This document shows, in pieces, positions 15,308 to 34,916 of a stretch of 64,000 bases of DNA. The notes beneath the pieces were generated by a model that was not told where the DNA came from, did not search any database, and saw nothing but the letters and a program-made list of their open reading frames with translations. The DNA is taken from NCBI RefSeq assembly GCF_057098645.1, contig NZ_CM169472.1. One strand, given 5' to 3'. Position numbers and translations under genes: made by a program. The stretch's first letter is position 1. The number at the start of each line of letters is the position of its first letter.

Positions 15308-15320
15308 GCTGCTGACCTCA

Positions 15321-18347: not shown

Positions 18348-18682
18348 TTTTCCGCGCCCTCACGACAAAGAATTTCAAGGCGTGTCCTGGCGGCATCCGG
18401 CAGCGGCTGCCCGATGATATTCAGTACACGCCCCGCCAGCGGCCCCGTACTGACCTTTATCCGGCTGGTGGCGTTGATGTCCTTCCGGTACCGTATCCAG
18501 ATCCTTACGGTACCAATCGCCAGCTCTGCACCCGATGAAATGGCCTCCTTGCTGCTGATCATGTTCACGCTTGCCCAGAGTGTGTGACCGTCCTCCCACG
18601 TTTCGAGTATTTCGCCGGTTATATCCCTGGTCTGTTTCAGGGTCTGAATCGTTACCCTGTCACGCAGTCGCCCTATGTTCAT
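18344..18682 (-). CDS. Head-tail adaptor / head closure protein (112 aa from MNIGRL)
   Basis: MNIGRLRDRVTIQ... typical of head-tail adaptor family; starts 4 nt inside the portal 3-prime end. Confidence 0.65.
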   Translation of the reverse strand: MNIGRLRDRVTIQTLKQTRDITGEILETWEDGHTLWASVNMISSKEAISSGAELAIGTVRIWIRYRKDINATSRIKVSTGPLAGRVLNIIGQPLPDAARTRLEILCREGAEK

Positions 18683-19890: not shown

Positions 19891-19891
19891 A

Positions 19892-20464
19892 TCACACCCC
19901 CGCTAAATCCGCCCACCAGCGGCGATTATCCGCACGCGGCATTTTTTCGGGGTGCTGCTCATACAGGGAACGGCGGGCCAGCTCCACGCCGGAATCGGGG
20001 TAAGCCGGTACCGATGTAACGGTAATTTCGTACAGTTCCGCCACCAGCACGGTGCGCACGCATGGATCTGTTGTGGTATCCCATACATCCTTACGGGAGC
20101 GAAAGCCAAAGCTCATCCCCGAGATGTCCCCACGCTTAACCAGTTCGATAACGTCGCGCCCTGTACTGGTATCCGGTGGGGTCAGTTCAAAGCGTAACCC
20201 TGTTTCGTCCTCTTCCAGTTTCAGCGTGCCGGAACGGGTGCGCCCCAGTAACATGCTGTGGTCATGCTCATACAGGCCGCGAACGTCATTACCCGCCGCA
20301 AGCCATTCAGTAAACGCTCCCCGCTGGAATTTTTCGTAAAACTCACCCCATAGCAGATCAGAAAGGTTATCCCAGCGAACAACGTAGCCTGTAAGCGTGT
20401 TGCTGGCGCTGGTGGTGATTTCCGATGACCGGATTTCCATACTCTTCATAATTTTTTCACCCAT
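19892..20464 (-). CDS. Prohead maturation protease, HK97 family (190 aa)
   Basis: Size and position between major capsid and portal genes. Confidence 0.8.
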   Translation of the reverse strand: MGEKIMKSMEIRSSEITTSASNTLTGYVVRWDNLSDLLWGEFYEKFQRGAFTEWLAAGNDVRGLYEHDHSMLLGRTRSGTLKLEEDETGLRFELTPPDTSTGRDVIELVKRGDISGMSFGFRSRKDVWDTTTDPCVRTVLVAELYEITVTSVPAYPDSGVELARRSLYEQHPEKMPRADNRRWWADLAGV

Positions 20465-20503
20465 AAAACACTAAAGGGGCTTTTAAGCCCCTTCTGTATG
20501 CTG

Positions 20504-21661
20504 TTAATCGTCGTCTTCCGGCAGTTCCAGAATCTTGATCGCGTTCGAATCCACCACGCCACCGCCTAAATATTTTTGCGTGAAAATTTTGATGAATCCT
20601 GGTTCTGTCAGGTTGTCCGGTCTGGTGCGAACACCTGTTTCGTGATCAACAATGTAGTAACCGCGTTTGAAGTCACCCAGGGCAATAACGTTATCAGGCA
20701 TAAACTCCAGATATTCGACCGGAAGGCCCAGCAACGTATCAGGATCACCCGCCTGTAAACGGTCGCGCCAGATATAATCACCGTTCGCGTTCTTCACCTT
20801 CTGAAGTTTTGCCGCCGTCGTGGAGTTAACCACCCAGACCGCGTTTTTGCGGTATTTTTTACGTAATGCAAATTTCAGGTCGATCAGCGGGTCCGCAGAT
20901 GTCCACGCCAGAGATTCGGAAGGTTTAATTACCTGCAACGTACCAAAATCACGCTCTTTGTCGTTCTTCTCTGCACGGGGTACGGATAAAAAACCTTTTG
21001 CTTTTTTGTCACCGTCGCCCACAACCAGATCGCTTTCTTCGGTTTCCGTGAAGGTGTCGCCAATCTCACCCGTCAGCCATGAAAGGATGTCCACATCGGA
21101 AAAATCCACGATTTCCTGTGTGGTGCGCGGGTACGCATAGACCGGATACAGCTTGATGCTCACCTCGTTAATCTGCGGGGTGCTGGTCTGTTCGCGTGCC
21201 TTACCCTCTTCACCGTGGTTAACGGTCGCACCGCCAGCGGAAACAAGCTGCTTAAACTCGTTGCTGCTGATTTTCTTCACGGTACAGATGCGGCGCATGG
21301 TGGATTCATCCGCCAGCATTCGCATGATTTCGGTGTTCAGTTCAGGGATAACGGTATAACCACCATCAGCGGGAACGCCTGTACTTAATGCGCGGGTTTC
21401 ACCTGTCAGAATGTAGTTGCGGAGTTCTGCGGGGTCAGTGGTCTGACTGCTTTTACCTGGCTTGCTGCGCTCTTCGTCTGCAATGGCTTCAAGGCGGGAA
21501 ATGTCTTTATCGAGGGATTCAGCTTTAGCGCGTAATTCGTCAAATTTTGCGCCCTCTGCATCGTTAAGGCTGCGGTTTTCTTTTTCCGCGTTCTCCAGCA
21601 TGTCGCGCATCTGATTTTTAATGGCGGTTTTCTGCTGGCGTAATTCGATTATTCTCGGCAT
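20504..21661 (-). CDS. Major capsid protein, HK97 fold, with N-terminal coiled-coil scaffolding (delta) domain
   Basis: Start taken at MPRIIELRQQ (ATG 21661) because the upstream codons of the 21706 ORF form a terminator hairpin; coiled-coil N-terminus then MCP-like body. Confidence 0.85.
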   Translation of the reverse strand: MPRIIELRQQKTAIKNQMRDMLENAEKENRSLNDAEGAKFDELRAKAESLDKDISRLEAIADEERSKPGKSSQTTDPAELRNYILTGETRALSTGVPADGGYTVIPELNTEIMRMLADESTMRRICTVKKISSNEFKQLVSAGGATVNHGEEGKAREQTSTPQINEVSIKLYPVYAYPRTTQEIVDFSDVDILSWLTGEIGDTFTETEESDLVVGDGDKKAKGFLSVPRAEKNDKERDFGTLQVIKPSESLAWTSADPLIDLKFALRKKYRKNAVWVVNSTTAAKLQKVKNANGDYIWRDRLQAGDPDTLLGLPVEYLEFMPDNVIALGDFKRGYYIVDHETGVRTRPDNLTEPGFIKIFTQKYLGGGVVDSNAIKILELPEDDD

Positions 21662-21699
21662 AAAAAAAAGTCCTGGGGTTAAGTAAGGAACTCCAGGAC
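21662..21699 (-). terminator. Intrinsic terminator immediately upstream of the capsid start codon
   Basis: Minus-strand RNA: GUCCUGG(AGUU)...(AACC)CCAGGAC stem followed by U8 and then AUG. Confidence 0.55.
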
Positions 21700-21751
21700 G
21701 CGGCAAACACTCAACCGTTTTTCATAAGGAAATCAGTAATCGCACCGATCG

Positions 21752-21801
21752 TTTTCCCGCCTGGTAATGAATATTGGCGAGCACATTAACAGGCGGGAAA
21801 A
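21752..21801 (-). promoter_or_regulatory. Long perfect hairpin in the capsid-operon leader (12-bp stem TTTTCCCGCCTG/CAGGCGGGAAAA, 26-nt loop)
   Basis: Inverted repeat read directly from the sequence. Confidence 0.45.
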
Positions 21802-21876
21802 TGGCCCCAGCGTCCTGGCACCACGGGCGAGAATAATCATGATTCAGTTCGGGTAAAATATGCCGATCCACTCAGT

Positions 21877-21906
21877 GAACAACGTGGAACAACCACGAAC
21901 AAATAA
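21877..21906 (+). promoter_or_regulatory. Third copy of the AACAACGTGGAACAA-N4-GAACAA motif, in the capsid-operon leader
   Basis: Same motif as at both island ends (14481-14508, 32483-32510). Confidence 0.35.
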
Positions 21907-21920
21907 TTTACAAAACATGA

Positions 21921-21943
21921 CAAAAAGCCGGATTGCTCCGGCT
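21921..21943 (-). terminator. Intrinsic terminator after the PerC-like gene
   Basis: Minus-strand AGCCGGA-GCAA-TCCGGCU hairpin followed by UUUUU. Confidence 0.5.
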
Positions 21944-21949
21944 GTGTGA

Positions 21950-22222
21950 TTATCTGTCCTGGTAATTTCGCCATATTTCATCACCAGCACCATCCATACC
22001 CATTTCGGCATAAGTGCGATCGACCGCCTTTTTCAGGTCTCCGTAATTATCCGGCGGCTCCGGTGGCCTCTGTGCCTTCCTGGAACATTCCAGCCGTCGC
22101 ATCGTGATATGATGCCGTTCCTTGTCTGTCTCCACCAGCTGCATGACTTCACCCCATCGCGCCGCCGCCCTCCGGTAAAAGCCTTTCGCCTCCAGTTCCT
22201 CCGCTATGCGGTCATGTACCAT
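21950..22222 (-). CDS. Small regulator, possibly PerC-family (90 aa from MVHDRIAEEL)
   Basis: ATG 22222 with GGGGGTGA Shine-Dalgarno, 11 nt after the ssb stop; FYRRAAARW motif reminiscent of PerC-like activators; family assignment is tentative. Confidence 0.4.
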   Translation of the reverse strand: MVHDRIAEELEAKGFYRRAAARWGEVMQLVETDKERHHITMRRLECSRKAQRPPEPPDNYGDLKKAVDRTYAEMGMDGAGDEIWRNYQDR

Positions 22223-22232
22223 CGTCACCCCC

Positions 22233-22643
22233 TCAGAACGAAATATCATCACCGTAAGGGTCATCGCCTCCCGCTGGTGGCTGATTACCCTGTGTGCCTG
22301 TGGTTTTGCGTCTGTTCCCGCCTGGACGTGCCGCGCGGGCACTGATTACGCTGTCTGCGATAACCTGCCAGCCCTGCCGCGTTTCTCCGTTCTGTCCGGT
22401 CCACTGGCTGACCTGCATCGTGCCGGATACGCTGGCAACATCGCCTTTTTGATGTTTAGCCAGGAAGTCGGCCTGTTTGCCAAATGCGATGACCGATAAC
22501 CATAACGTCGCCTGTCCGTCCTGTGCCTGGCTGCATGGCAAAGATACCGCCATACGCGCCAGCGTCATCGGTGTGCCCTTGCTGGTCTGTTTTACCTGCG
22601 GGTCGTCCACCAGCCGCCCGTAAGCGGCTATCTGTGCCGTCAT
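22233..22643 (-). CDS. ssb: Single-stranded DNA-binding protein (136 aa)
   Basis: OB-fold region plus Gly/Pro-rich tail ending with acidic DDISF-like C-terminus. Confidence 0.75.
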   Translation of the reverse strand: MTAQIAAYGRLVDDPQVKQTSKGTPMTLARMAVSLPCSQAQDGQATLWLSVIAFGKQADFLAKHQKGDVASVSGTMQVSQWTGQNGETRQGWQVIADSVISARAARPGGNRRKTTGTQGNQPPAGGDDPYGDDISF

Positions 22644-22891
22644 AATTCCACCTCTCCGGTTTTAACGTTGATGGTTGTTACCTGTTCCGCTTCGGCAATC
22701 TCCCGTTCTGTCAGCGTGGCAAAGTTTGCCGCCGCCGTGGTCATGAATGCGCTTATCAGGTCGGGATGTTCCTTCGCGTATCCTTCCCGCGTGTGGCGGT
22801 CTATCGTTCTGATTGCCACCTTTAAGGTGTGCTCAGTCATGTCTAACGCTTTATATTTTGGCTCTGTTCTGTCTCTGCGTTTTTGGGTCAT
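22640..22891 (-). CDS. Hypothetical protein (83 aa from MTQKRRDRTEP)
   Basis: ORF between ori and ssb; GAGAGG Shine-Dalgarno before ATG 22891; start uncertain. Confidence 0.45.
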   Translation of the reverse strand: MTQKRRDRTEPKYKALDMTEHTLKVAIRTIDRHTREGYAKEHPDLISAFMTTAAANFATLTEREIAEAEQVTTINVKTGEVEL

Positions 22892-22903
22892 TTCTCGCAA
22901 CCT

Positions 22904-23093
22904 CTCACTTTTTCGCCTCACTTTTTCAAGCGTCTCACTTCGTCGCAGTTGGGATTTTCGGTTTTTCTATGTGTGTGTTTCATAAGTATTTTTTTACCCC
23001 TCACTTTTGAGGATGTATACAGGTCGAAAAGTGAGGGAGAGCGGGCTAATTTTGGCCCTCTTTCTATCCCCCTCGCTTTTGCTCCTCACTTTT
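22904..23093. repeat. Iteron array, candidate island replication origin
   Basis: Six direct copies of (C)CTCACTTTT and one inverted copy (AAAAGTGAGG) immediately 3-prime of the rep gene, the last overlapping the rep stop codon. Confidence 0.6.
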
Positions 23094-24492
23094 ATAGCGG
23101 CGCTACATCATCCCCATCGATACGAATAACCCCATCTTTTTCCAGCTTGTACAGCCAGCGCCGGAAGTTTTTCATTTCATACCCCAGCTTTTTCATGTCA
23201 TCACGTAACAGCGGGATCGTGCACTTGTCGCCGTTCTGTGTGCGTGAACGGATGCACCCCCATAGCGCGGTATGGTTTTCCGTCTTGTTCCCTGCCTCCT
23301 CGATGCGCTCCAGTTCAACAGGAGGGCGCGGATCATCCACCACCACCAGCGACGTGATTAATTCACCGTCAGCGTCGGTAAAAAGCTCCACCACGCGTAA
23401 GTCATATGCGGCTTCTTTGAGTTCCTCCGCGTCCTTCATTTTGGTGCATGAGATAACCAGCGCTTCGCTTCCTGCGTCCTCCCTGCGTATCCGGTATTCA
23501 GCATCCAGCGAAGCACGAAATGCACTGGAACCGCGCGCGCCTTTCGTCTCATCCTTGCCGGAATGGTGAACCACCAGCACCGTGGCCCCTGTGCGTCGTT
23601 TCAGTTCGTCACAACCACGGATAAACGCCCCCATATCACGGGAATCATTTTCATCATTCCCACCAAAGCAACGCGCCAGCGTATCCAGAATAATCATGCG
23701 TACAGGTTTACCCGTTTCCCGCTCCACCTGACGGGCAGCGATAACCATTTCATCAACATCAAGCGGGGCAGCCGGAAAGATGGGGCGGTTTACCAGATAC
23801 AGATTTTTCACCTGCTCATCGTGCACAACCTCCCAGGCTTTTACACGACGCGGAACACCTATACCGCCTTCACCAACCACATAGAGAACCGCACCATGTG
23901 CAACCCTGCGGCCTCCCCACTGGCGACCAGTGGCAACATGGCACGCCCACGATCCGGCAAGGAATGATTTATAGGACCCGCTAGCCCCGTATATGCTGCA
24001 TAGCGATACCGCCGGAATAATCCCCTTAACCACGTAATCCAGTTGCGTGTCGTATCCGGTAGATCCAACGCTCATCGGTAGCGTGGTTTTTCGCTGGTGG
24101 TTTTTTTCTTCCGCCGGCTCTTTCCCGCGCACCCGTTCCAGGTATTCGCGCCAGTTCTCCCGCATATGGTTGTGCATCCCTTCGGGGTAATAATTCGCAT
24201 CAGTTACACCCGCCGCCGCCAGCTTGTGCGCAATGGCATTAATATTTGATGGCCTGATGTGGCCTGCCTTGTACAGCCGGACACAATAGCGCCCCTCGTC
24301 GATGATTCTCAGGTCTGCCAGTTCATCCAGTTGATCATCAGCCAGCACAACGGGAGGCACATTATCGCCAGCCAGTCGCCCGTCCTGTTCCTGCCACTGT
24401 TTCGCATGTGCCCAGGCATCACTACCCGCAAAAATAATGACTTCGGTCATCTTGTCGTAAGGCTGTTTTTTTAAGTTCGGTGCGCTTTTCAT
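23092..24492 (-). CDS. Replication initiation protein (primase/helicase-like RecA-fold NTPase, 466 aa)
   Basis: Deviant Walker A (GASGSYKS) and Walker B (MIILDTLARCF) motifs; position between small-gene operon and ori as in PICI pri-rep. Confidence 0.7.
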   Translation of the reverse strand: MKSAPNLKKQPYDKMTEVIIFAGSDAWAHAKQWQEQDGRLAGDNVPPVVLADDQLDELADLRIIDEGRYCVRLYKAGHIRPSNINAIAHKLAAAGVTDANYYPEGMHNHMRENWREYLERVRGKEPAEEKNHQRKTTLPMSVGSTGYDTQLDYVVKGIIPAVSLCSIYGASGSYKSFLAGSWACHVATGRQWGGRRVAHGAVLYVVGEGGIGVPRRVKAWEVVHDEQVKNLYLVNRPIFPAAPLDVDEMVIAARQVERETGKPVRMIILDTLARCFGGNDENDSRDMGAFIRGCDELKRRTGATVLVVHHSGKDETKGARGSSAFRASLDAEYRIRREDAGSEALVISCTKMKDAEELKEAAYDLRVVELFTDADGELITSLVVVDDPRPPVELERIEEAGNKTENHTALWGCIRSRTQNGDKCTIPLLRDDMKKLGYEMKNFRRWLYKLEKDGVIRIDGDDVAPL

Positions 24493-24614
24493 TTCTTGCC
24501 CCTGAATCCGTTAACTGCGTATTCCGCTCTATTCGATCACGGATTGGCATCGAAGTCCGATCAGCGATTCGCATCCATTCGATCAACCGGGAACTTAACT
24601 TTTTCTACCGCTTT

Positions 24615-25370
24615 TTAACGCGTTTTTTCGCTGCTTTCCACTACCGGGGGATTTTTCCTCAGTGACTCTCCCTGAAGGACCACTCGGTGTGAGTTATGTA
24701 CCAGTCTGTCCAGGATGGCATCTGCTGTTGTTGGGTTCTCCATCAGACCATGCCATTTATCTACCGGGAACTGGCTTACCACTATCGTGCTGCTTTGTCC
24801 GTAACGATCCTCTATGAGCTCCAGAAGGTCATTACACTGGGCGTTACTTAACTGTTCCAGCCCCAGATCGTCCAGGATTAGAACCTGTATTTTTTGCAAC
24901 TGTTTCAGATATTTCAGCCAGCTGCCATCAACACGTCCCTGAGCCAGTTGTTCCAGTAATCGCCCGGTTCTACAGTACCGGACGCTGTGTTTCTGTCGAC
25001 ATGCCTGTTCGCCCAGCGCATTGGCTATCCAGCTCTTGCCACATCCTGTCGGACCGGTTATCAGCAGGTTTTTCCTGTGGGTTATGTAGTGGCCGTTCAG
25101 CAGTTCTCTCATCTGTTCAGCCCGCAGACCTCTTGAGGCCGGATAGCGCAGCCCTTCCGGTGTTGCCTGGTATTTCAGGCCGGCATTTTTTCTCAACCGT
25201 GCCACACGGCTGTTTTCCCTGCTCAGAAGCTCGTCATCAACCAGCAGCGTCAGCCTTTCCTCGAACGACAGTTCGTCGTAGGTCTGAGGCGTTTCCCGCT
25301 GCCGTATCAGGCTCCCGGCCATCGCCGGGAGTTTCAGTTGGGTCAGTTTGTTTAACAGGTTATCACTCAT
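24615..25370 (-). CDS. istB: IS21-family helper ATPase IstB
   Basis: Walker A GPTGCGKS and typical IstB architecture; start taken at MSDNLLNKL. Confidence 0.85.
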   Translation of the reverse strand: MSDNLLNKLTQLKLPAMAGSLIRQRETPQTYDELSFEERLTLLVDDELLSRENSRVARLRKNAGLKYQATPEGLRYPASRGLRAEQMRELLNGHYITHRKNLLITGPTGCGKSWIANALGEQACRQKHSVRYCRTGRLLEQLAQGRVDGSWLKYLKQLQKIQVLILDDLGLEQLSNAQCNDLLELIEDRYGQSSTIVVSQFPVDKWHGLMENPTTADAILDRLVHNSHRVVLQGESLRKNPPVVESSEKTR

Positions 25371-25386
25371 ACTGTTGTTCCTTCTG

Positions 25387-26952
25387 TCAGTGGTAGTAGC
25401 CCGGACCACGCAGGTTTTCATGCTCTGAAGCATATGCCGGATGTTGTTCGCCCTGGCGGGATAATGGAAGCTCCAGGTTCTCCCGATGGTGACGCAGCAG
25501 ATTGTCGATAAAGCGTCTGTCAGGGGCGTTATAGTGCAGGGCAACGTAACAGGCCTTTTCCAGCCGTTCCGGGCCGTATTTTTTCTGAAGTGCCAGCAGC
25601 CCCAGAACTGCACGATAAGCCAGTTCCGGATGGGGTTTTGCCTTCAGCATGGATTCAACCACCCGGCCTGTGGACGGGCCCGTACGTTTTCCCTGCTCGA
25701 TCAGGCGTTCCGGTGTCCATGTCCCGTGCTGCCGGTGGCGCTCTGGCATGTGAAGCGGATTGGTTGTGTGTTTATATTCATGTGTGCTGCGCGGATGTTG
25801 CGCCACACACTGCCCCTTGTGCCAGAGCTGTACCACCGACTGCCCCGCCTTCAGTGACAGACGCTGACCGACCAGTTCGTGTGGAACGGAGTACCAGTGA
25901 CGGGCATATTCAACGTGGTAGTCAGGGCCAACCTTCACAGCTTTGTATTCCGTGTATTCATAAGGTGCCAGAGGCAGCGGAGAGAGTGCTGGCGCATCCA
26001 GTATGCGGAAGCGTTCTGCACGGGTTTGATTGCCGTACCCCTTCATTGGCCGGTTATTCATGTCTGTCAGTAACTCCCTAAGGCGCGCATTCAGCGCCCT
26101 GAGCGTGTGGAAGGTTTCATTACGGATGCGGGCAAGAAGCCATCGTTCAACGATGAGGACGCCGTTTTCTGCTTTTGGTTTATCTTTAGGTTTGCGTGGT
26201 CGGGCCGGGATGATAACCGTGCCATAGTGCTCAGCCAGTGCCTGATAACTGTCGTTGATGACAGGCTCATATCGATCGGCCTTTTTCACTGCGCTTCTGA
26301 GGTTATCGGGGATGAGCAGCTTCGGTACGCCGCCCAGGAAGGTCAGGCAACGGCTGTGGGCATTTAACCATGACATCATGTCCTGACCTTCGCACGCTTC
26401 AACGTAGGTATAGTTGGACGCCCCCATTACGGCCACGAAGATTGCCACGCGGCGTATCTCACCGGTGTCCGGATTAATAACAGGAACCGTAGGACCACAG
26501 AAGTCGATAAAAAGCTTTTCGCCGGCACGATGCTCCTGGCGCATGGAGAGACGTCGCGTTTTTTTCCACTCCCGGTAGCAACGGCAGAAGTGCGAGTATC
26601 CCATCGCTTTGTTACCCGCCTGTGCCTTGTATTCCATCCACAACAGTTGCCGCGTCACACCTGGTTTTCTCATTTCCGTATCGAAGTACAACATGTCAGG
26701 CATTACAAGCTCTGATGCAAAGGTGTCTTTGGGCGGAAAAATGAGTTTCTCCAGCGTGTCATGGGATATATCAGCAGGTAATGGCCATGACAGAGAAGAG
26801 GCTTTGAAGCGGGCAAGAACCTCAAAAACGGTTGAGGCGCTGATGTGTAACGTCAGTCCGATACAACGGTTAGTCAGCTTCTTGTCGAACTTGAGCTGAA
26901 GGATCTTAAAACAGGTTTCCATAGTGCTCCTGGATTTTCTCTTTCTGGACAT
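25387..26952 (-). CDS. istA: IS21-family transposase IstA
   Basis: N-terminal HTH then DDE integrase core; start ambiguous (26922, 26952 or 27033). Confidence 0.8.
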   Translation of the reverse strand: MSRKRKSRSTMETCFKILQLKFDKKLTNRCIGLTLHISASTVFEVLARFKASSLSWPLPADISHDTLEKLIFPPKDTFASELVMPDMLYFDTEMRKPGVTRQLLWMEYKAQAGNKAMGYSHFCRCYREWKKTRRLSMRQEHRAGEKLFIDFCGPTVPVINPDTGEIRRVAIFVAVMGASNYTYVEACEGQDMMSWLNAHSRCLTFLGGVPKLLIPDNLRSAVKKADRYEPVINDSYQALAEHYGTVIIPARPRKPKDKPKAENGVLIVERWLLARIRNETFHTLRALNARLRELLTDMNNRPMKGYGNQTRAERFRILDAPALSPLPLAPYEYTEYKAVKVGPDYHVEYARHWYSVPHELVGQRLSLKAGQSVVQLWHKGQCVAQHPRSTHEYKHTTNPLHMPERHRQHGTWTPERLIEQGKRTGPSTGRVVESMLKAKPHPELAYRAVLGLLALQKKYGPERLEKACYVALHYNAPDRRFIDNLLRHHRENLELPLSRQGEQHPAYASEHENLRGPGYYH

Positions 26953-27137
26953 TGACGTCTCCACTGGTTTAAACACGGCAATGGAGACTGTGGTGAAAAG
27001 AGTTAATTCCCGGAGTGACTGGCAGGATGCCAATCAATGATCGGAAGCATGCCAAATCGTGATCGATTGTGATGCCAAACTGTGATCGGAGATGGATGCC
27101 AAATCATGATCGATTCGAATGCCAAACTGCGATCGAT

Positions 27138-27434
27138 TCAGATGCCATTTTGCACGTTAACCATGGTTTTCAGCTTCTGGATGTTTGCCCGTGCCCTGGC
27201 GTTGCTGGTGGGCACGTTATGCGGCGCGGTCTGTACCAGAGAAAAATCACGCCGGAACTGATAAACAGGCATCACGCAATCATATTCGTAACCTTCACGG
27301 CGGTAAGTTACGCACCGTCCCGCCACGCCCTTAATCATTACCGTGCCGCCGTACTGGTCGCGGTAAATATCACCGCGCGTAAATTTAGGGTGAGTGTTGC
27401 CACTGGCAGTTAAGCCAGAATATTTAAGTTTCAT
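27138..27434 (-). CDS. Hypothetical protein (98 aa); last 6 codons replaced by IS21 end sequence
   Basis: Before the IS21 insertion this gene would end ...KLKTMVNGFRGKK with its TGA overlapping the rep ATG (24490-24492). Confidence 0.5.
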   Translation of the reverse strand: MKLKYSGLTASGNTHPKFTRGDIYRDQYGGTVMIKGVAGRCVTYRREGYEYDCVMPVYQFRRDFSLVQTAPHNVPTSNARARANIQKLKTMVNVQNGI

Positions 27435-27439
27435 TATTT

Positions 27440-27673
27440 TTATTCTCCGGTGTGCTGTTCTTTATATCTGTCGTGCAATAGATCTATTTTTTGCAGTTCC
27501 ATTATTACAGGCTCAAGTAGCGTTATTAATGCCGTGGCAATTCTTGATTTTTGTTTGTCGCGTTCATTATCTCCAAGCGTGTCAAGCCATATGCGCAATA
27601 TTTCCAGCATGTTTTCACTGTGAGAAAGTGCAAGAAATGCGCGGTCTATTGTTTCAAGGTAAATATCACGCAT
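27440..27673 (-). CDS. Hypothetical protein (77 aa)
   Basis: Coupled ORF (5-bp gap to next gene, 1-nt gap after previous stop). Confidence 0.5.
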   Translation of the reverse strand: MRDIYLETIDRAFLALSHSENMLEILRIWLDTLGDNERDKQKSRIATALITLLEPVIMELQKIDLLHDRYKEQHTGE

Positions 27674-27674
27674 A

Positions 27675-27896
27675 TTAATCCCCGTCCGTCGTTTTTCTTA
27701 AAACAACTTCTGTCACGAAATCAGCATAGTTAGCGGCAATATCAAGAATATTTAGCCCTGTATCCCTGTGCTCATCAGTGCAAAGAAAGAAAAAAGCCAC
27801 CAGCATAATTTCAGATATTGACGAAAGCGCATCAGCCGCATCATCAGGAACGCCGGAAAATTCCTGTTTCAGGGAATTAAAACGATCATCACGCAT
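27675..27896 (-). CDS. Hypothetical protein (73 aa)
   Basis: First ORF of the three-gene set upstream of rep. Confidence 0.45.
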   Translation of the reverse strand: MRDDRFNSLKQEFSGVPDDAADALSSISEIMLVAFFFLCTDEHRDTGLNILDIAANYADFVTEVVLRKTTDGD

Positions 27897-27929
27897 AACC
27901 CCGTTACTTTATTCGTACCCCTTATAATG

Positions 27930-28129
27930 GGGTGTTAGCCAGCCAGACCCGGCATGATTACTGCCCCCAGTCGTCCATGATCCGGGGGGTGATGTCACCG
28001 GGTCTGGTGGGGCGCTGGTAACCGCTAATAGGGGTCAGGTCAGGCACTTTTGCCGGGACCGTCTGTAACGTGGATGCCGGTACCTGCTCCCCGTGGTTAT
28101 CTGGTTAACCCATATACAAGGGAGACAGA
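27930..28129 (+). ncRNA. Candidate IS110-type bridge (guide) RNA in the 5-prime non-coding end
   Basis: Structured GC-rich non-coding flank upstream of the recombinase, where IS110-group elements encode their bridge RNA; not verified by folding. Confidence 0.25.
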
Positions 28130-29326
28130 ATGACCGAATCCAGCGATTACGAATCCGTCCAGGTCTTTATCGGCGTTGATGTCGGTAAAGATACGCATCA
28201 CGCTGTAGCCATTAATCGTTCAGGTAAACGCCTGTTCGATAAAGCATTACCCAACGACGAAAACAAACTCAGGTCGCTAATATCTGACCTGAAACAACAT
28301 GGTCAGATACTGCTGGTTGTTGATCAGCCAGCTACCATCGGTGCGTTACCTGTCGCCGTTGCCCGCTCAGAAGGAGTCCTTGTCGGATACCTCCCTGGAC
28401 TGGCCATGCGCCGCATAGCCGACTTACACGCCGGTGAAGCTAAAACTGATGCTCGTGACGCTGCCATCATTGCCGAAGCTGCCCGTACCCTGCCTCACGC
28501 GCTACGCACGCTGAAACTGGCTGACGAGCAAATCGCCGAACTCTCCATGCTCTGCGGCTTCGATGATGATCTTGCCGCACAGACAACGCAGGCCAGCAAC
28601 CGTATCCGCGGCCTTCTGACCCAGATACATCCGGCACTGGAGCGCGTTCTCGGTCCGAGACTTGATCACCCGGCGGTACTCGATCTTCTCCAGCGATATC
28701 CCTCACCAGAAAAACTCGCTTCGCTGGGTGAGAAGAAGCTGGCAGCCCAGCTCTGCAAACTTGCGCCTCGTCTGGGTAAACGCCTTGCAGCAGACATAGC
28801 TCAGGCACTGGCCGAACAAACCGTCGTCGTTCCCGGCACGAATGCCGCTGCCGTAGTACTGCCACGTCTGGCACTCCAGCTCATCACGCTGCGTAAGCAA
28901 AGAGACGAGGTGGTGCTTGAGGTAGAACAGCGAGTTCTTGCTCACCCTCTTTACCCGGTCCTGACCAGTATGCCCGGAGTCGGTGTCAGGACCGCAGCCA
29001 GACTCCTCACCGAGGTCGCCTGCCGCGCCTTCGCCTCTGCCGCACATCTCGCTGCTTATGCTGGCCTTGCGCCGGTAACTCGGCGATCCGGCTCGTCAAT
29101 ACGCGGTGAGCATCCCTCGCGACGGGGTAATAAAGCTCTCAAACGGGCGTTGTTCCTGTCGGCCTTCGCCGCGCTCAGGGATCCGCTCTCCAGGGCTTAC
29201 TACACCCGCAAAATGAGTCAGGGAAAACGACACAATCAGGCGCTTATCGCCCTGGCGAGACGACGCTGCGACGTTCTGTTCGCCATGATGCGCGACGGGA
29301 CTTTTTATACCCCGCAGGCGTCATAA
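28130..29326 (+). CDS. IS110-family transposase/recombinase (398 aa)
   Basis: N-terminal IGVDVGKDTHHAVAIN (RuvC-like DEDD) motif and C-terminal serine-containing domain. Confidence 0.85.
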   Translation: MTESSDYESVQVFIGVDVGKDTHHAVAINRSGKRLFDKALPNDENKLRSLISDLKQHGQILLVVDQPATIGALPVAVARSEGVLVGYLPGLAMRRIADLHAGEAKTDARDAAIIAEAARTLPHALRTLKLADEQIAELSMLCGFDDDLAAQTTQASNRIRGLLTQIHPALERVLGPRLDHPAVLDLLQRYPSPEKLASLGEKKLAAQLCKLAPRLGKRLAADIAQALAEQTVVVPGTNAAAVVLPRLALQLITLRKQRDEVVLEVEQRVLAHPLYPVLTSMPGVGVRTAARLLTEVACRAFASAAHLAAYAGLAPVTRRSGSSIRGEHPSRRGNKALKRALFLSAFAALRDPLSRAYYTRKMSQGKRHNQALIALARRRCDVLFAMMRDGTFYTPQAS

Positions 29327-29339
29327 CATGCTTGACAAC

Positions 29340-29561
29340 TTAATAGGGGCACCCCCCATTTTCACAATCAGCAATAAGAATATTTTTAGCGTCATTCAGC
29401 GACCGCGTGGCGGTGTATCGGATACATTCCAGGGCGAACTGTGTCCGGTCTTTCTGTTCTTCTCCCTGCGCAAGCTCTGCAGTGCATTCAATATCGATAA
29501 GCGCGTGCATCAGCGTAGTGAGCGCGGCGGCTGCTGCGTCCGGTGTGGTTTTATTGCACAT
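29340..29561 (-). CDS. Hypothetical Cys-containing protein (73 aa, MCNKTTPDAAAAALTTLMHALIDIECTAEL...)
   Basis: AGGAGG Shine-Dalgarno 8 nt upstream; ATG overlaps the end of the preceding gene by 11 bp; stop is 14 nt from the IS110 transposase stop. Confidence 0.5.
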   Translation of the reverse strand: MCNKTTPDAAAAALTTLMHALIDIECTAELAQGEEQKDRTQFALECIRYTATRSLNDAKNILIADCENGGCPY

Positions 29562-29751
29562 GGCACACCTCCTGACGAATACGGGCGGCGAATACAGCAA
29601 CACAACCGGACGGGCAACGGCTACGCGCTTCGCGTTCCGTCCAGGCGGTTACGTGGATGATTTGAGATTCTCCGGCACTCAGTGCCAGAAAACGCCACAC
29701 AAAGGCCGTTTGTGTGTGTACAAGGTGTGGTATATGATTTACAGCAACCAT
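29551..29751 (-). CDS. Hypothetical Cys/His-rich protein (66 aa, MVAVNHIPHLVHTQTAFVWRF...CPSGC...CHVQ)
   Basis: AGGAG Shine-Dalgarno 5 nt upstream of ATG; first gene of the leftward small-gene operon. Confidence 0.55.
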   Translation of the reverse strand: MVAVNHIPHLVHTQTAFVWRFLALSAGESQIIHVTAWTEREARSRCPSGCVAVFAARIRQEVCHVQ

Positions 29752-29780
29752 AACGGCTCCTAGTTTACGTTGTTGGTTAG

Positions 29781-29825
29781 AAGCCCTGCGAGTGGTAACG
29801 ACACTTGCGGGGCTTTGTCTTTTCA
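29781..29825 (+). terminator. Strong hairpin with U-rich tail, best formed on plus-strand RNA
   Basis: 14-bp stem AAGCCCUGCGAGUG/CACUUGCGGGGCUU with two G-U pairs on the plus strand (C-A mismatches on the minus strand), followed by UGUCUUUUC. Confidence 0.45.
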
Positions 29826-29845
29826 TCGATTACCTTGATAAAGGT

Positions 29846-29924
29846 GTCAGCCACTATATTAGTAACGGGTGTCAGCCACGTCAATAGTGTTTTTCCGTTT
29901 TCTTGTGTGTATACTGTCAGCCAC
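29846..29924 (+). promoter_or_regulatory. Three direct repeats TGTCAGCCAC (29846, 29870, 29915) overlapping the promoter of the RHH gene
   Basis: Exact 10-bp repeats; the third overlaps a TATACT -10-like hexamer about 30 bp upstream of the RHH start. Confidence 0.5.
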
Positions 29925-29945
29925 CTAATAACGAGGAAATCAGAT

Positions 29946-30125
29946 ATGGCAACAAAAGCAGTTAATGCAAAATCCAAAAAGCTTGAGGCTCGAGTACCAC
30001 ACGCAATAGCTGATGCTGTAGAAAATTTAAAGGAAGATGGCGAAAGTACAGGGCAATTTATCGTTTCGGCACTTGAAGGCGAGATCAAACGCCGCCAGCG
30101 CCGCAAGGCCAAAGAATCAGAATAA
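29946..30125 (+). CDS. Ribbon-helix-helix (CopG/Arc-like) DNA-binding protein (59 aa)
   Basis: MATKAVNAKSKKLEARVPHAIADAVENLKEDGESTGQFIVSALEGEIKRRQ: beta-strand then two helices pattern; plus strand, divergent from the small-gene operon. Confidence 0.6.
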   Translation: MATKAVNAKSKKLEARVPHAIADAVENLKEDGESTGQFIVSALEGEIKRRQRRKAKESE

Positions 30126-30167
30126 TCACTATCAGCGCCGTGGTGTGAGGTATTACGGCGCATTGCT

Positions 30168-30356
30168 ATGCAGGACAACACAATGACCGATAAAGAATTG
30201 ACCAAAACATTATCACCGGCACGGAAAAGACGGCGCAGAAAGATAGAGCATGAATCAGAAAGATTCGCGCCATGTGCTTTTGCCCTTGAGCAATTCCTTA
30301 AAGAATACAGGGAAAAGCGCTCATTGCAGGTATGGCAACGAACTGAACCAGACTGA
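30168..30356 (+). CDS. Hypothetical highly basic protein (57-62 aa, contains RKRRRRK)
   Basis: ORF directly downstream of the RHH gene and upstream of an intrinsic terminator; weak ribosome-binding site. Confidence 0.4.
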   Translation: MQDNTMTDKELTKTLSPARKRRRRKIEHESERFAPCAFALEQFLKEYREKRSLQVWQRTEPD

Positions 30357-30451
30357 TTGCATTGCCCACCAGCCTGATAGCGGCTATCATCCCCGTGCTT
30401 ATGTTTGGGATCACACACACAAACGGCGCAGCGGGTTATCTGTTCAGAAAG

Positions 30452-30479
30452 GCGGCTCCATTTCGGGGCCGCTTTTTTT
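30452..30479 (+). terminator. Intrinsic terminator of the plus-strand RHH cassette
   Basis: GCGGCUCC-AUUUC-GGGGCCGC hairpin followed by UUUUUUU. Confidence 0.6.
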
Positions 30480-30625
30480 ATGCCTGAAAAACCCCAATTT
30501 TGTGGTTTTCCAGTCTCACCAGGGCGAACGAATCCCCGCCCACGTTCTGGCGTATATTCAATCTTCATGGTTATAGCTCTGTGTTCAGATGATTGATGTG
30601 TGGCGGCTGTGTGCCGCCAGCGTGA

Positions 30626-30814
30626 TTAATGAACTGCCTTGCAGCTATCCTTCCAGGCCAGAACCTCGGATAAAGACCAGCCAACGGAACGACCGCCAAG
30701 TTTACGACGTGATGGGAATTGTCCGGCCTTTTCCAGGCGGTAGCGACACGTACGGCTAAGGCCGGTTAGTTTTTCGCATTCTTTTTCACGTATAAACCGA
30801 TCAGTGCTTAACAC
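30626..30814 (-). CDS. alpA: AlpA-family phage regulatory protein (62 aa)
   Basis: LTGLSRTCRYRLEKAGQFPSRRKLGGRSVGWSLSEVLAW matches the AlpA/Xis-like HTH family pattern. Confidence 0.8.
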   Translation of the reverse strand: MLSTDRFIREKECEKLTGLSRTCRYRLEKAGQFPSRRKLGGRSVGWSLSEVLAWKDSCKAVH

Positions 30815-31188
30815 TATTGCCCCCTTTCGTTTCTTAAAGAGTTATTTCGTGTTCTATTGCGTTGAGATGTGTCTGATTGTGTCAGGATGATTCAGAGTTG
30901 GCAAATGTTGAGGCCGTATGGTTTACAGAAAGAGGAATAATCAGGATAAAATCATTTAAATTCATGTTAATACAAAGACATAAAATATTGTTTCATGCCT
31001 TTTTTCTCGCTATTTAAAGAGTGATTCGCTAGTGTATAAAAAACCAGTGACACATTAAAAATCAGCTACTTATAAATCTGTACACTTTTTCGCCTCTTGT
31101 TCGTAGTTGTTCCGCATTGTTGCTCATTGTTGCACGTTGTATCTGTTCGCATATCCAGTATGCGCATACTGAAAAAATACGAAAAAAA

Positions 31189-32406
31189 TTATTTTCTTCT
31201 GGCTACTGGTAGCGTGGTTACGTTTTCATGTGTTCCCGCCAGTATCCCTAACCGCTCCATCCACATATCCAGCGCATTGCGTTTAGCATCCAGATAACGG
31301 GAATGATTATAAACTCGCTGCATTCCTGGCATCTGGTGGCCTGTAAGCTGCTCCACGACATGCGGATCAACGCCTAAATCGTTCAGCATGGTTGTAAAGG
31401 TGCGCCGGATGTCATGCAGTGACCAGTGAGGATGATTAAGCCTCCTGTGCGCTAATCTTCCATACTGCGATACGCTGGCCTCCTGTTTCACTTCCCCCAG
31501 CAATAAGCCCGTGTGCCTGTTCTGCTCCACCAGCTGCGTGACGAACGGCAGGATCGCTTCCGGTATGGGCCGGAATATTGCGACCTTCGTTTTGCTGTGC
31601 TCCTTCGGAACGGTCCATAGCATTTCCGTAAAATCCCACTCCCCGATCTCCGATAGCCTCAGTTCTACCGTCCTGGCTCCGAAGACAATCAGGAGGCGGA
31701 TTAACGCGACGTAGTAAGGGGAAAATATTTTTTTGTCCAGTGCCTGCAATAATTCGCCAAGTTCTTTGTTACTTAAGACACGTTCGCTTATATCCGGTTT
31801 TTTCCCAACGTCCGCCACGTTCAGATCGTCCAGAACGTTGCTGATTGCATAGCGCCGCCTACGGCAGAACTTAAGCGCCTGTTTGCACGCCTGTAGCACG
31901 AATCCGGCAGTAACAGGCGTTCGCTTTGCCACCTGGTCAAAACAGGCCAGCCAGTGCCGTAGCTCGCATTTATCCAGCGGCATAGCACCAATCTGCTGTA
32001 TTACGTGATTATTAAGTCGCCTTTTCAGGGCGATATAATCCACGCGCTTTTCCTTTACGTAATACTCAAGCCAGTAGGTGAGCGCATCGCCAACCGTTAC
32101 GGGCTTTAACGCTTCCTGTACGGTGTAATTCATCTCATGACGTGGATTTTTCCCCTCAGCCAGCCATGTGCGACACTGTGCGGCTTTTTCCCTAGCTGCT
32201 TTCAGGCTCAGATCAGGATAACTTCCCAGCTTAATGCGTTCGGGTCGTGTCTCCCTTCCCGTTCCGGCCCTGTATGTGAAATACCAGGTCAATTTCCCTG
32301 ATGTTAAATATTTCACGCTCAGGTTTCCGCCATCACTATAAAACGTGTTTTTCTCCGCTGGCTTACCATGAAGTTTCCTTAGCAAGGTATCGCTCAGTTT
32401 GTTCAT
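31189..32406 (-). CDS. int: Tyrosine integrase, P4-like (about 405 aa)
   Basis: Arm-binding N-terminal domain plus catalytic R..HxxR..Y signature (HDIRRTF...RYLD); start at ATG 32406 (GTG 32418 also possible). Confidence 0.9.
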   Translation of the reverse strand: MNKLSDTLLRKLHGKPAEKNTFYSDGGNLSVKYLTSGKLTWYFTYRAGTGRETRPERIKLGSYPDLSLKAAREKAAQCRTWLAEGKNPRHEMNYTVQEALKPVTVGDALTYWLEYYVKEKRVDYIALKRRLNNHVIQQIGAMPLDKCELRHWLACFDQVAKRTPVTAGFVLQACKQALKFCRRRRYAISNVLDDLNVADVGKKPDISERVLSNKELGELLQALDKKIFSPYYVALIRLLIVFGARTVELRLSEIGEWDFTEMLWTVPKEHSKTKVAIFRPIPEAILPFVTQLVEQNRHTGLLLGEVKQEASVSQYGRLAHRRLNHPHWSLHDIRRTFTTMLNDLGVDPHVVEQLTGHQMPGMQRVYNHSRYLDAKRNALDMWMERLGILAGTHENVTTLPVARRK

Positions 32407-32444
32407 TGCTCTGCTCACGTTTTACCCCCTCTTTACGAAAAAGT

Positions 32445-32510
32445 GACTACACCAGTGACTACACCGATCGTTGCACAAAGGGCTACAACGTGAAACAAGC
32501 TGGAACAAGG
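32445..32510 (+). promoter_or_regulatory. Right-arm repeat cluster: GACTACACC x2 then ACAACGTGAAACAAGCTGGAACAAGG
   Basis: Between the int start and the chromosomal junction; mirrors the left-arm cluster. Confidence 0.4.
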
Positions 32511-32593
32511 AAAATCACAAATCTGTTGATAATCAAAAACATAATGCACAGCCTGAAACATTATGAAACAGCAAAAAACACTAAATGATAAAA

Positions 32594-33500
32594 TGCTGTT
32601 ATTCTTAACCCGCTGGTGCAACACATGGTCCGCTGGCGAGTGCCGCGTGTACTGGCGGTGTCGATTTTGATGACCATCATCGTGATGGCTATGGTGTTGC
32701 TGTTAGCTTATCTGGGTTCCGCGCTCAACGAGTTGACGCGGACGTTACCGCAATATCGCAACTCTATTATGACGCCGCTGCAAGCTCTTGAGCCGTTGTT
32801 GCAACGCGTAGGGATTGACGTCTCAGTTGACCAGCTGGCGCATTACATTGATCCGAACGCGGCGATGACGTTGCTCACCAACTTATTGACGCAGTTATCT
32901 AATGCCATGTCATCAATATTTTTATTGCTGCTGACGGTGCTGTTTATGCTGCTCGAAGTGCCACAATTGCCCGGAAAATTTCAGCAAATGATGGCGCGTC
33001 CGGTTGAAGGGATGGCGGCGATTCAGCGTGCGATTGACAGTGTGTCTCATTATCTGGTGCTGAAAACAGCCATCAGCATCATCACCGGCCTGGTCGCATG
33101 GGCGATGCTCGCCGCCCTCGATGTTCGCTTCGCTTTTGTCTGGGGATTGCTGGCCTTTGCGCTTAATTACATCCCTAATATTGGTTCAGTTCTCGCGGCA
33201 ATCCCCCCTATCGCTCAGGTACTGGTGTTTAATGGCTTCTACGAAGCGTTGCTGGTGCTGGCGGGATATCTGCTGATTAATCTGGTCTTCGGCAATATTC
33301 TGGAGCCGCGCATCATGGGACGTGGGCTGGGGCTTTCGACATTGGTGGTATTTTTGTCGTTGATTTTTTGGGGATGGTTGTTAGGACCGGTGGGTATGCT
33401 GCTTTCCGTGCCGTTGACAATTATTGTCAAAATTGCGCTTGAACAAACAGCGGGAGGTCAAAGCATCGCCGTTCTGTTAAGCGATCTCAATAAAGAGTGA
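32594..33500 (+). pseudogene. tqsA: tqsA (ydgG) AI-2 exporter, 5-prime truncated at the island junction (lacks about 45 codons)
   Basis: K-12-like TqsA sequence begins abruptly at ...[16 protein letters not shown]; an in-frame TAA sits at 32589-32591 just inside the island. Confidence 0.8.
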
Positions 33501-33524
33501 CGGCCTCCGCAGAGGCCGTCAGGG
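33501..33524. terminator. Bidirectional hairpin between tqsA and pntB
   Basis: ACGGCCTCCGCAGAGGCCGTC inverted repeat. Confidence 0.45.

Positions 33525-34916
<1,392 letters not shown>

What the first reader, a model, noticed from the sequence alone, without database searches (positions are those of the whole stretch)
29781..30479. Plus-strand RHH regulator cassette with three direct-repeat operators, divergent from the island small-gene operon
A ribbon-helix-helix protein (29946-30125) and a downstream highly basic ORF (30168-30356) form the only plus-strand unit in the island, ending at a clean terminator (30452-30479). The RHH promoter carries three exact TGTCAGCCAC repeats, the third over the -10. 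The cassette is divergent from the leftward operon that leads into rep and convergent with alpA. This is the layout expected for an island master repressor (functionally analogous to SaPI Stl) or a small toxin-antitoxin or defence module; neither protein is one I can assign to a characterised family.
Basis: partly seen in the sequence, partly recalled or inferred. Interest (0 to 1): 0.65.

Follow-up and report, generated by a model that had tools for sequence, protein, structure and literature searches.

The report
Satellite island RHH repressor-operator switch
This is the probable on/off switch of a phage-parasitising island in E. coli: a tiny DNA-binding repressor whose three binding sites sit on the promoters it faces. 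The module is present in about a third of complete E. coli genomes, and I found no paper that studies it.

Summary
A 59-aa ribbon-helix-helix (RHH) protein of the named but uncharacterised YlcI/YnfO family lies at 29946-30125. A small conserved ORF follows (true start probably 30183), then a strong one-way terminator (30446-30479). Three exact TGTCAGCCAC copies (really 11-mers, GTG-N5-CAC) lie in the 119-bp divergent promoter region.

In 50+ homologous islands across Enterobacterales the three sites keep their positions. Two lie on the leftward promoter and one abuts the -10 of the RHH gene. The 5-bp core changes together with the beta-strand residues of the RHH. The sites therefore look like its operators.

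The surroundings resemble the immunity region of satellite phage P4. alpA corresponds to vis, and the Icd-like gene is a homologue of the C-terminus of P4 Kil/Eta. A long minus-strand ORF (an Eta analogue) is kept open straight through the RHH gene and its operators. A conserved plus-strand stem-loop plus terminator lies antisense to the Icd-like ribosome-binding site.

A toxin-antitoxin or defence role is not supported. The best reading is an immunity repressor of a capsid-forming PICI/P4-like satellite. It is a new variant of known kinds, and it is untested experimentally.

The parts
29551..29751 (-). Icd-like gene, first gene of the leftward operon; homologue of the C-terminus of P4 Kil/Eta. 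The start at 29751 has the SD AGGAG.
   Evidence: NF033153 at 63.8 bits. P4 Eta/Kil residues 161-208 hit the same model at 73 bits. RefSeq start as in L001.
29745..29826 (+). Candidate cis-antisense RNA: a stem-loop whose loop holds the anti-SD (GGCTCCT), then a 15-bp hairpin (29780-29816) and a U-rich tail. It is complementary to the RBS and start of the Icd-like gene. The 5' end is not mapped.
   Evidence: In 39 diverse sequences 98.5% of cells are paired, 14 of 17 pairs show compensatory changes, and 0 of 500 shuffles reach the observed values. The hairpin is more stable on the plus strand in 47 of 48 loci. Window fold -27.4 kcal/mol, z -4.7.
29844..29854 (+). Operator O1, GTGTCAGCCAC, 1 nt downstream of the -10 of the leftward promoter
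29856..29884 (-). Leftward promoter P_L: -35 TTGACG (29884-29879), 17-nt spacer, -10 TAATAT (29861-29856)
   Evidence: Promoter scan, 9 of 12 matches. The GTCAA next to site 2 is conserved in nearly all loci.
29869..29879 (+). Operator O2, GTGTCAGCCAC, in the spacer of P_L and touching its -35
29910..29915 (+). -10 (TATACT) of the RHH gene promoter; no good -35
   Evidence: GTATACTG is conserved across loci.
29914..29924 (+). Operator O3, cTGTCAGCCAC, abutting the -10 and covering the expected transcription start
29946..30125 (+). YlcI/YnfO-family ribbon-helix-helix protein, 59 aa
30183..30356 (+). Small conserved ORF, 57 aa: disordered basic N-terminus plus one long helix; found only in E. 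coli/Shigella; function unknown
   Evidence: phrog_21027 E 1.6e-15; homologues with in-frame indels; dN/dS 0.33; AF2 model
30446..30479 (+). Intrinsic terminator of the RHH operon, effective on the plus strand only
29777..30568 (-). Long ORF (263 aa) antisense to the small ORF, the RHH gene and the operators; analogue of P4 eta. In this island it is out of frame with the Icd-like gene and stops 26 nt before the Icd-like start codon.
   Evidence: Stop-free in 53 of 56 loci. Stops per 130 nt of promoter region: 0.34 against 4.1-4.5 in the other two minus frames. T is avoided at wobble sites before His/Gln codons. No family hit for the product.
30626..30814 (-). alpA (P4 vis homologue), convergent with the RHH operon and co-directional with the long ORF
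   Evidence: phrog_2790; RefSeq annotation; synteny in most loci
31189..32418 (-). Island integrase, next to the truncated tqsA

Best explanation
The cassette is the immunity (repressor) module of a PICI/P4-like phage satellite.

Proposed mechanism. The 59-aa YlcI-family RHH protein binds, presumably as dimers, to three 11-bp operators of the form GTG-N5-CAC. O2 lies in the spacer of the leftward promoter P_L and O1 lies at its start site. Bound repressor therefore shuts off the Icd-like (P4 Kil homologue) and replication operon. O3 abuts the -10 of the RHH gene's own promoter, which gives autoregulation. The RHH gene and a small accessory ORF are transcribed rightwards and stop at a one-way terminator before alpA.

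The module is embedded antisense inside a long Eta-like ORF that runs from alpA to the Icd-like gene.

Inferred by analogy with P4: when a helper phage turns on alpA, read-through transcripts are kept translated across this ORF. This would avoid Rho termination, run over and silence the RHH promoter, and express the Icd-like and replication genes.

A conserved plus-strand antisense RNA over the Icd-like ribosome-binding site probably adds a second, translational lock.

Shown here: the sequence features, the fold, the synteny, the covariation and the open-frame constraint.

Inferred: binding, repression, and the way repression is lifted.
For: Family and fold:
- Searches place the protein in YlcI/YnfO and in the RHH fold.

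Site placement:
- The three exact repeats occur only in this intergenic region.
- P_L (TTGACG-17-TAATAT) is placed so that O2 lies in its spacer and O1 at +1.

Comparative evidence:
- In 50+ distinct loci from about 25 genera the three sites stay at about -103, -78 and -33 from the ATG, next to a conserved GTCAA and a conserved GTATACT.
- The 5-bp core changes with beta-strand residues 11-15:
  - KKLEA: TCAGC
  - KRFDV: TCGGA
  - LQVSV: AACAC
  - QQLNA: AATCG
  - QMTTV: AAATA
  - QTLAA: TTGAA
  - QS.T.: TCTTA
- The same pairing recurs in distant genera whose flanks have diverged.

Natural swaps:
- L001 and L002 have identical AlpA and Icd-like proteins but different RHH genes and different repeats.
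- L001 and L003 share the RHH and operators but have different replication proteins.

Context:
- The order ylcI, convergent alpA, int holds in most loci.
- P4 Eta/Kil carries the same Icd-like domain, and the P4 mechanism is summarised in PMC10111431.
- The antisense frame is kept open.
- The antisense RNA structure shows covariation.
- The literature reports no repressor for Gram-negative PICIs (PMC6092414).
Against: - There is no experimental binding or expression data of any kind.
- The covariation is a correlation between tightly linked sequences.
- The RHH promoter has no convincing -35.
- Operator spacings (25 and 45 bp) are not whole helical turns, so cooperative binding is uncertain.
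- Published work induces EcCICFT073 by AlpA over-expression alone and does not invoke a repressor. I could not locate that island to check whether it carries the cassette.
- In this window the leftward operon is broken by IS110 and IS21 insertions, and the long ORF is out of frame with the Icd-like gene. This copy may therefore be inactive.
- The promoter of the antisense RNA is not identified.
Confidence: 0.62

Rival explanations
1. Type II toxin-antitoxin pair: the RHH is the antitoxin and autorepressor, and the basic 57-aa ORF is the toxin.
Against: - The small ORF is missing from all 73 RHH-bearing loci outside E. coli, and in L002 it follows a different RHH.
- It has no toxin-family or PADLOC match.
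- Its model is a disordered tail plus a single helix.
- The 59-aa RHH has no C-terminal toxin-binding extension.
Confidence: 0.04
2. The repeats are binding sites for another island protein (AlpA as activator, or the replication initiator as iterons), and the RHH acts elsewhere.
For: AlpA activates PICI promoters in EcCICFT073. P4 Vis and the alpha protein bind short repeats (own knowledge; ori repeats are annotated).
Against: - Identical AlpA goes with different repeats (L001 and L002).
- Identical repeats go with different replication proteins (L001 and L003).
- The cores track the RHH beta-strand in about 14 classes.
- The motif is absent upstream of alpA and elsewhere in the island.
Confidence: 0.07
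3. The RHH is an accessory or packaging-related factor, as its phage relatives might be, and regulates only itself. It is not the island's master switch.
For: K-12 ylcI lies next to the cos site and nohD of prophage DLP12 and lacks the three-site architecture. Autoregulation alone would explain O3.
Against: O1 and O2 lie exactly on the -10/+1 and the spacer/-35 of the leftward promoter in all loci. The position between alpA and the replication operon is conserved.
Confidence: 0.15
4. The plus-strand genes are shadows of one real minus-strand gene (a long Eta-like protein), so there is no RHH cassette.
For: The minus frame is under clear selection to stay open across the whole region. PGAP sometimes calls a minus-strand pseudogene there.
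Against: - The RHH protein is strongly conserved, folds confidently as RHH, and belongs to a family with members in non-overlapping contexts such as K-12 ylcI.
- It has its own SD, -10 and terminator.
- The minus-frame product has no family hit.
- In the small-ORF region dN/dS is lower on the plus frame (0.33 against 0.44).
Confidence: 0.04

Closest known systems
YlcI/YnfO family (NCBIfam NF041551; K-12 prophage genes ylcI of DLP12 and ynfO of Qin)
   Same: Sequence family membership at 60.6 bits. Short RHH-type proteins of about 60 aa on mobile elements of Enterobacterales. K. pneumoniae L078 bridges the two subtypes.
   Different: I found no paper on the family's function. K-12 ylcI lies beside cos/nohD of a lambdoid prophage and has no GTG-N5-CAC triplet of sites. 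The island clade has a distinct MATKxxNAKS N-terminus and a GEIKRRQRK tail.
Immunity region of satellite phage P4 (vis, nested eta/kil, internal promoter P_LE, CI RNA with seqA/seqC)
   Same: alpA is the vis homologue and lies upstream in the same direction. A long ORF runs into an Icd-like (Kil) C-terminus, and an internal promoter faces the replication genes. P4 Eta/Kil hits the same Icd-like model (mechanism as summarised in PMC10111431).
   Different: P4's immunity factor is an RNA on the same strand (C4/isrK Rfam hits). The window has no such hit. Instead a protein repressor gene with operators is embedded antisense in the long ORF, together with a cis-antisense RNA. One relative (L004) carries both kinds.
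SaPI Stl / PICI Rpr master repressors of Gram-positive cocci
   Same: Position between int and the replication module, divergent from the operon it would repress. Proposed role of keeping the island quiescent (PMC6092414).
   Different: No sequence relation was detected in any search here, and I recall Stl as an HTH-type repressor (own knowledge). Stl is lifted by binding a helper-phage protein. Here, lifting probably depends on alpA-driven read-through, and nothing suggests an anti-repressor partner.
RHH repressors acting on iterated short repeats (omega of pSM19035, CopG, Arc/Mnt of P22 immI)
   Different: 11-bp GTG-N5-CAC units 25 and 45 bp apart rather than contiguous heptads. About 14 natural specificity classes share one fixed promoter scaffold.
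P1/P7 immI (c4 RNA, icd, ant) and hok/sok-type antisense control
   Same: Translation of a small, potentially toxic Icd-type ORF is the controlled step. An RNA complementary to its RBS is present (P1 and hok/sok from own knowledge).
   Different: The RNA here would be a true cis-antisense transcript with an anti-SD loop and its own terminator. It matches no Rfam family.

Membership tests
YlcI/YnfO family (NF041551) | HMM score above the curated cut-off (30 bits) | tested here: met
   60.6 bits, E 1.1e-16, residues 9-50. K-12 YlcI scores 37.6 bits.
Ribbon-helix-helix superfamily | N-terminal beta-strand followed by two helices | tested here: met
Ribbon-helix-helix superfamily | Dimer that inserts a two-stranded sheet into the major groove of repeated sites | not testable with these tools
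   Indirect only: the operator core co-varies with beta-strand residues.
Type II toxin-antitoxin system | Partner gene belongs to a toxin family | tested here: not met
   No hit in Pfam, NCBIfam or PADLOC. The only match is phrog_21027, of unknown function.
Type II toxin-antitoxin system | The two genes travel together | tested here: not met
   The small ORF was found only in the E. coli loci and in none of the 73 loci from other genera. In L002 it is paired with another RHH.
P4-type immunity region | vis/alpA upstream of, and co-directional with, a long ORF that ends in the Kil/Icd-like domain | tested here: inconclusive
   Met in many relatives, with in-frame ORFs of 1000-1300 nt. In this window the long ORF is in another frame and stops 26 nt before the Icd-like start.
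P4-type immunity region | CI (C4-type) RNA and a seqA (isrK-type) target | tested here: not met
   No Rfam hit at E<=1 in 20000-34000. The P4 control and L004 do hit.
P4-type immunity region | Rho-dependent termination relieved by translation of the long ORF | not testable with these tools
   Only the selection for an open frame is seen.
SaPI Stl-like master repressor | Divergent from the repressed operon, between int and the replication genes | tested here: met
SaPI Stl-like master repressor | Derepression by direct binding of a helper-phage protein | not testable with these tools
   No data.
Anti-phage defence system | Match to a known defence protein model | tested here: not met
   PADLOC gave no hit for the RHH, the small ORF, the Icd-like protein or AlpA.
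Capsid-forming PICI (host element) | int, alpA and rep plus own capsid, portal, protease and terminase genes | not tested
   The ORF layout at 15300-21700 suggests it, and relatives in E. coli O157:H7 genomes match the description in the cf-PICI preprint 10.1101/2022.09.08.507074. The capsid-module proteins were not searched.

The most novel reading that the evidence does not exclude
A three-layer bidirectional switch in which a repressor gene, its operators and both promoters are all encoded inside, and antisense to, a translated Eta-like ORF. Transcription and translation arriving from alpA would erase repression physically, and a cis-antisense RNA would guard the toxic Icd-like gene. The RHH beta-strand and operator core would have diversified into a dozen or more immunity types that let several satellites coexist in one cell. 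That would be the missing repressor of Gram-negative PICIs and a natural, readable protein-DNA recognition code for an RHH family.
Probability: 0.35. Interest if true: 0.85.

Novelty: new variant of a known kind. Interest (0 to 1): 0.68.

Why it matters
- Missing repressor. Gram-negative PICIs are said to have no known repressor; only the activator AlpA has been described (PMC6092414). Parts of this cassette match in 1702 of 5426 complete E. coli genomes, although only 155 carry 80% or more of it. It is a concrete, testable candidate for the missing negative control.
- Recognition code. The roughly 14 matched pairs of beta-strand sequence and operator core on one fixed promoter scaffold form a ready-made data set for RHH-DNA recognition rules and for orthogonal repressor parts.
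- Overlapping genes. Complete antisense overlap with a frame kept open by selection is a rare, clean case of dual coding in bacteria. It links PICI regulation to the P4 eta/kil paradigm.

Tried and rejected
- cos-site idea. I suspected that the region after the RHH gene might be a non-coding cos site, because K-12 ylcI lies beside cos. A distant DNA search of the phage collection found nothing, and the ORF is conserved as a protein.
- tblastn of both small proteins against phages found nothing. The queries are probably too short for that database.
- Conserved 'KTKAALQGRQC' at the start of the long ORF looked like a protein motif. It is simply the antisense reading of the RHH-operon terminator.
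- I tried twice to find the model island EcCICFT073 in the CFT073 genome by coordinates, and found only a lambdoid prophage and core genes. I therefore make no claim about that island.
- No fold search was run for the small ORF, because its model is one helix.
- The -10-like element proposed for the antisense RNA lies inside conserved Icd-like codons. Its conservation alone does not prove a promoter, although the synonymous sites there are unusually fixed.

Full report
**Where we are**

The window is E. coli. The finding lies in an island inserted in tqsA beside pntAB. The island carries:
- int (31189-32418, minus strand) and alpA (30626-30814, minus);
- the plus-strand cassette of the finding;
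- a leftward operon that starts with an Icd-like gene and runs to a RepA-type helicase (23092-24492);
- what looks, from ORF sizes only, like a capsid/portal/terminase block at about 15300-21700.

This is the layout of a capsid-forming PICI as described for EcCIEDL933. E. coli 042 carries the same regulatory module (int, alpA, the cassette, the Icd-like operon and RepA), without IS elements, joined to a shorter late region with only capsid and head-decoration genes (L001). In the window the leftward operon is interrupted by an IS110-family element and an IS21 element.

**The observation**

All the stated features are present.
- TGTCAGCCAC occurs exactly three times in 64 kb, all within 80 bp.
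- The ORF 29946-30125 is a YlcI/YnfO-family protein (60.6 bits against a cut-off of 30; phrog_949).
- It has no Pfam hit and no PDB sequence hit.
- Its AlphaFold model (pLDDT 88) shows an extended segment at 11-18 and helices at 19-28 and 35-58.
- The terminator is strong on the plus strand only.
- The second ORF has 36 homologous clusters, all from E. coli or Shigella. They are mostly 57 aa and start at the Met at 30183. They share an invariant ERFAPCAF..LE.FLK core and differ by in-frame indels.
- Its model is a disordered basic tail plus one helix.

**What the repeats are**

I fetched 73 loci encoding relatives of the RHH from one-genome-per-species contigs and 10 E. coli loci.

Upstream of nearly every homologue the architecture is the same:
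- an 11-mer GTG-N5-CAC at about -103;
- a second at about -78, abutting a conserved GTCAA;
- a third at about -33, directly after a conserved GTATACT.

On the minus strand, GTCAA reads as the -35 (TTGAC) of a leftward promoter. In the window this promoter is TTGACG-17-TAATAT (29884-29856). Site 2 fills its spacer and site 1 begins 1 nt after its -10. Site 3 abuts the -10 of the RHH gene.

The 5-bp core is not conserved. It changes together with residues 11-15 of the protein, the RHH beta-strand:

| Beta-strand residues | Operator core |
|---|---|
| KKLEA | TCAGC |
| KRFDV | TCGGA |
| LQVSV | AACAC |
| QQLNA | AATCG |
| QMTTV | AAATA |
| QTLAA | TTGAA |
| QS.T. | TCTTA |
| QKIHA | TGTTC |

The same pairing is kept in distant genera whose spacers have diverged. 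KKLEA with TCAGC is found in Escherichia, Xenorhabdus and (as RKLEA) Pectobacterium. QMTTV with AAATA is found in about ten genera. Site 1 can be inverted, as expected for a dimer on a pseudo-symmetric site.

Two natural swaps separate the repeats from other island proteins:
- L001 and L002 encode identical AlpA and Icd-like proteins. L002 has a different RHH gene and a different repeat (GGTAATTACC, twice) at the same place.
- L001 and L003 share the RHH and operators but have unrelated replication proteins.

I take this as strong indirect evidence that the RHH binds these sites.

**The surroundings: a P4-like immunity region**

- The Icd-like gene hits NF033153. So does the C-terminus of the P4 eta/kil ORF (residues 161-208, 73 bits).
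- In P4, eta is coupled to the upstream alpA homologue vis, contains an internal promoter, and must be translated for transcription to pass the immunity region. The immunity factor is the CI RNA (summary in PMC10111431).
- The window has no C4 or isrK match. The P4 control does, and so does one RHH-bearing relative, L004.

**A long ORF antisense to everything**

On the minus strand an ORF runs from 30568 to 29777 through the small ORF, the RHH gene and the operators.
- In 53 of 56 distinct loci this frame is stop-free across the RHH gene. The ORFs are mostly 600-1300 nt long and are often in frame with the Icd-like gene.
- In the 130-nt promoter region, which is non-coding on the plus strand, this frame has 0.34 stops on average. 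The other two minus frames have 4.45 and 4.08.
- Inside the RHH gene, the wobble base before His/Gln codons is T in 5 of 279 cases, against 21.5% overall. This is exactly what is needed to avoid antisense TGA (the sequences are related, so the p-value overstates the case).
- The product has no family hit.

I read this as an Eta analogue whose openness, rather than its amino-acid sequence, is selected. This is consistent with translation protecting alpA-driven read-through from Rho. That last step is inference.

**A plus-strand RNA element**

Just upstream of the operators, at about 29745-29826, lie a short stem-loop and a 12-15-bp hairpin with a U-rich tail.
- The loop of the short stem-loop carries the complement of the Icd-like Shine-Dalgarno sequence.
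- Across 39 diverse sequences 98.5% of cells pair, 14 of 17 pairs show compensatory changes, and no shuffle reaches the observed values.
- G.U pairs make the hairpin more stable on the plus strand in 47 of 48 loci. The RNA is therefore antisense to the Icd-like translation start.
- Rfam has no match.
- Its promoter is not established. A -10-like element lies in Icd-like codons whose synonymous sites are almost invariant.

**The small ORF**

- It shares its wobble positions with the long antisense ORF, so codon periodicity cannot tell the two apart.
- dN/dS is 0.33 on the plus frame, 0.44 on the antisense frame and 0.8-1.2 on the other frames.
- PGAP annotates it in several genomes.
- It is probably a real accessory gene restricted to E. 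coli. It is absent from all loci of other genera and is not tied to the RHH type.
- The region between the RHH gene and alpA is variable and can hold BRO-N/AntA genes.

**Rivals**

A toxin-antitoxin or defence module is not supported. AlpA or Rep as the binder of the repeats is contradicted by the natural swaps. The idea that the plus-strand genes are mere shadows is contradicted by the conservation, fold and signals of the RHH gene.

**Known or new**

- The protein family is named, but I found no paper on its function.
- It is small: 97 clusters at 50% identity among 1.84 billion proteins.
- The PICI papers I could read state that a repressor in Gram-negative PICIs is unclear. None mention this gene.
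- At least part of the cassette matches in 1702 of 5426 complete E. coli genomes, but only 155 carry 80% or more of it. Many genomes share just the small-ORF and terminator part, and some hold up to six copies.

I rate it a new variant of known kinds: an RHH autorepressor and a P4-type immunity region.

**Limits**

- Nothing here is experimental.
- This particular copy may be defective because of the IS insertions.
- I could not verify whether the model island EcCICFT073 carries the cassette.

Noticed in passing
window 29777-30568 (minus strand): A 263-aa ORF lies fully antisense to the RHH gene, the small ORF and the operator region. The same frame is kept stop-free in 53 of 56 related loci, even across the non-coding promoter region, and synonymous sites of the RHH gene are biased to allow it.
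   Followed up: yes
window about 29745-29826 (plus strand): A conserved stem-loop with an anti-Shine-Dalgarno loop, followed by a terminator-like hairpin, lies antisense to the start of the Icd-like gene. It shows strong covariation and G.U pairs specific to the plus strand, and has no Rfam match. Its promoter and 5' end are unknown.
   Followed up: yes
window 28130-29326 (plus) and 24615-27033 (minus): An IS110-family transposase gene and an IS21 istA/istB pair interrupt the leftward operon between the Icd-like gene and the RepA helicase. This copy of the island is probably crippled.
   Followed up: partly
L002 2780-3010 (E. coli O157:H7 strain 7409): At the position of ylcI there is a different RHH gene (MSTPLEKRSPPYQMRLPEDF...) with its own palindromic repeat, GGTAATTACC, present twice. 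AlpA, the Icd-like protein and the small ORF are essentially unchanged. PGAP does not annotate this RHH.
   Followed up: partly
L004 2624-2809 (E. coli STEC316, tRNA-Pro island): This relative carries both a P4-type CI RNA (Rfam C4, 75 bits) with an isrK/seqA-type element (80 bits) and the ylcI cassette. The two kinds of immunity determinant can therefore coexist.
   Followed up: no
L019, L022, L044, L068, between int and alpA: The Rfam int-alpA RNA motif (RF02996) hits above its gathering score in four related islands. No such hit was found in the window.
   Followed up: no
L084 4252-4834 (E. coli K-12 DLP12): K-12 ylcI is divergent from nohD, with the lambda-type cosN sequence (AGGTCGCCGCCC) about 200 bp upstream. 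It lacks the three GTG-N5-CAC sites, so the phage-borne members of the family seem to be wired differently.
   Followed up: partly
L005, L079, L082 (E. coli); L069, L070 (Serratia, Pantoea): Some family members are 101-104 aa long, with a conserved C-terminal extension (…EGSGENPLISSHDALAQVEKLG…) of unknown role.
   Followed up: no
L002 2857-3450, L005 2917-3396, L081 2098-2502: RefSeq/PGAP annotation of this region is inconsistent. It gives a minus-strand 'Icd-like, incomplete' pseudogene across the small ORF in some genomes, a 135-aa Icd-like protein reaching the ylcI start in another, and the small plus-strand ORF only sometimes.
   Followed up: partly
window 29700-29750; related loci: Codons 5-11 of the Icd-like gene (H/S-T-Q-T-R-P-K/E-F/Y) use almost invariant synonymous codons (ACC CAA ACT CGC) across genera. 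This points to a constraint at the nucleotide level, possibly the antisense RNA promoter or an RNA pairing site.
   Followed up: partly
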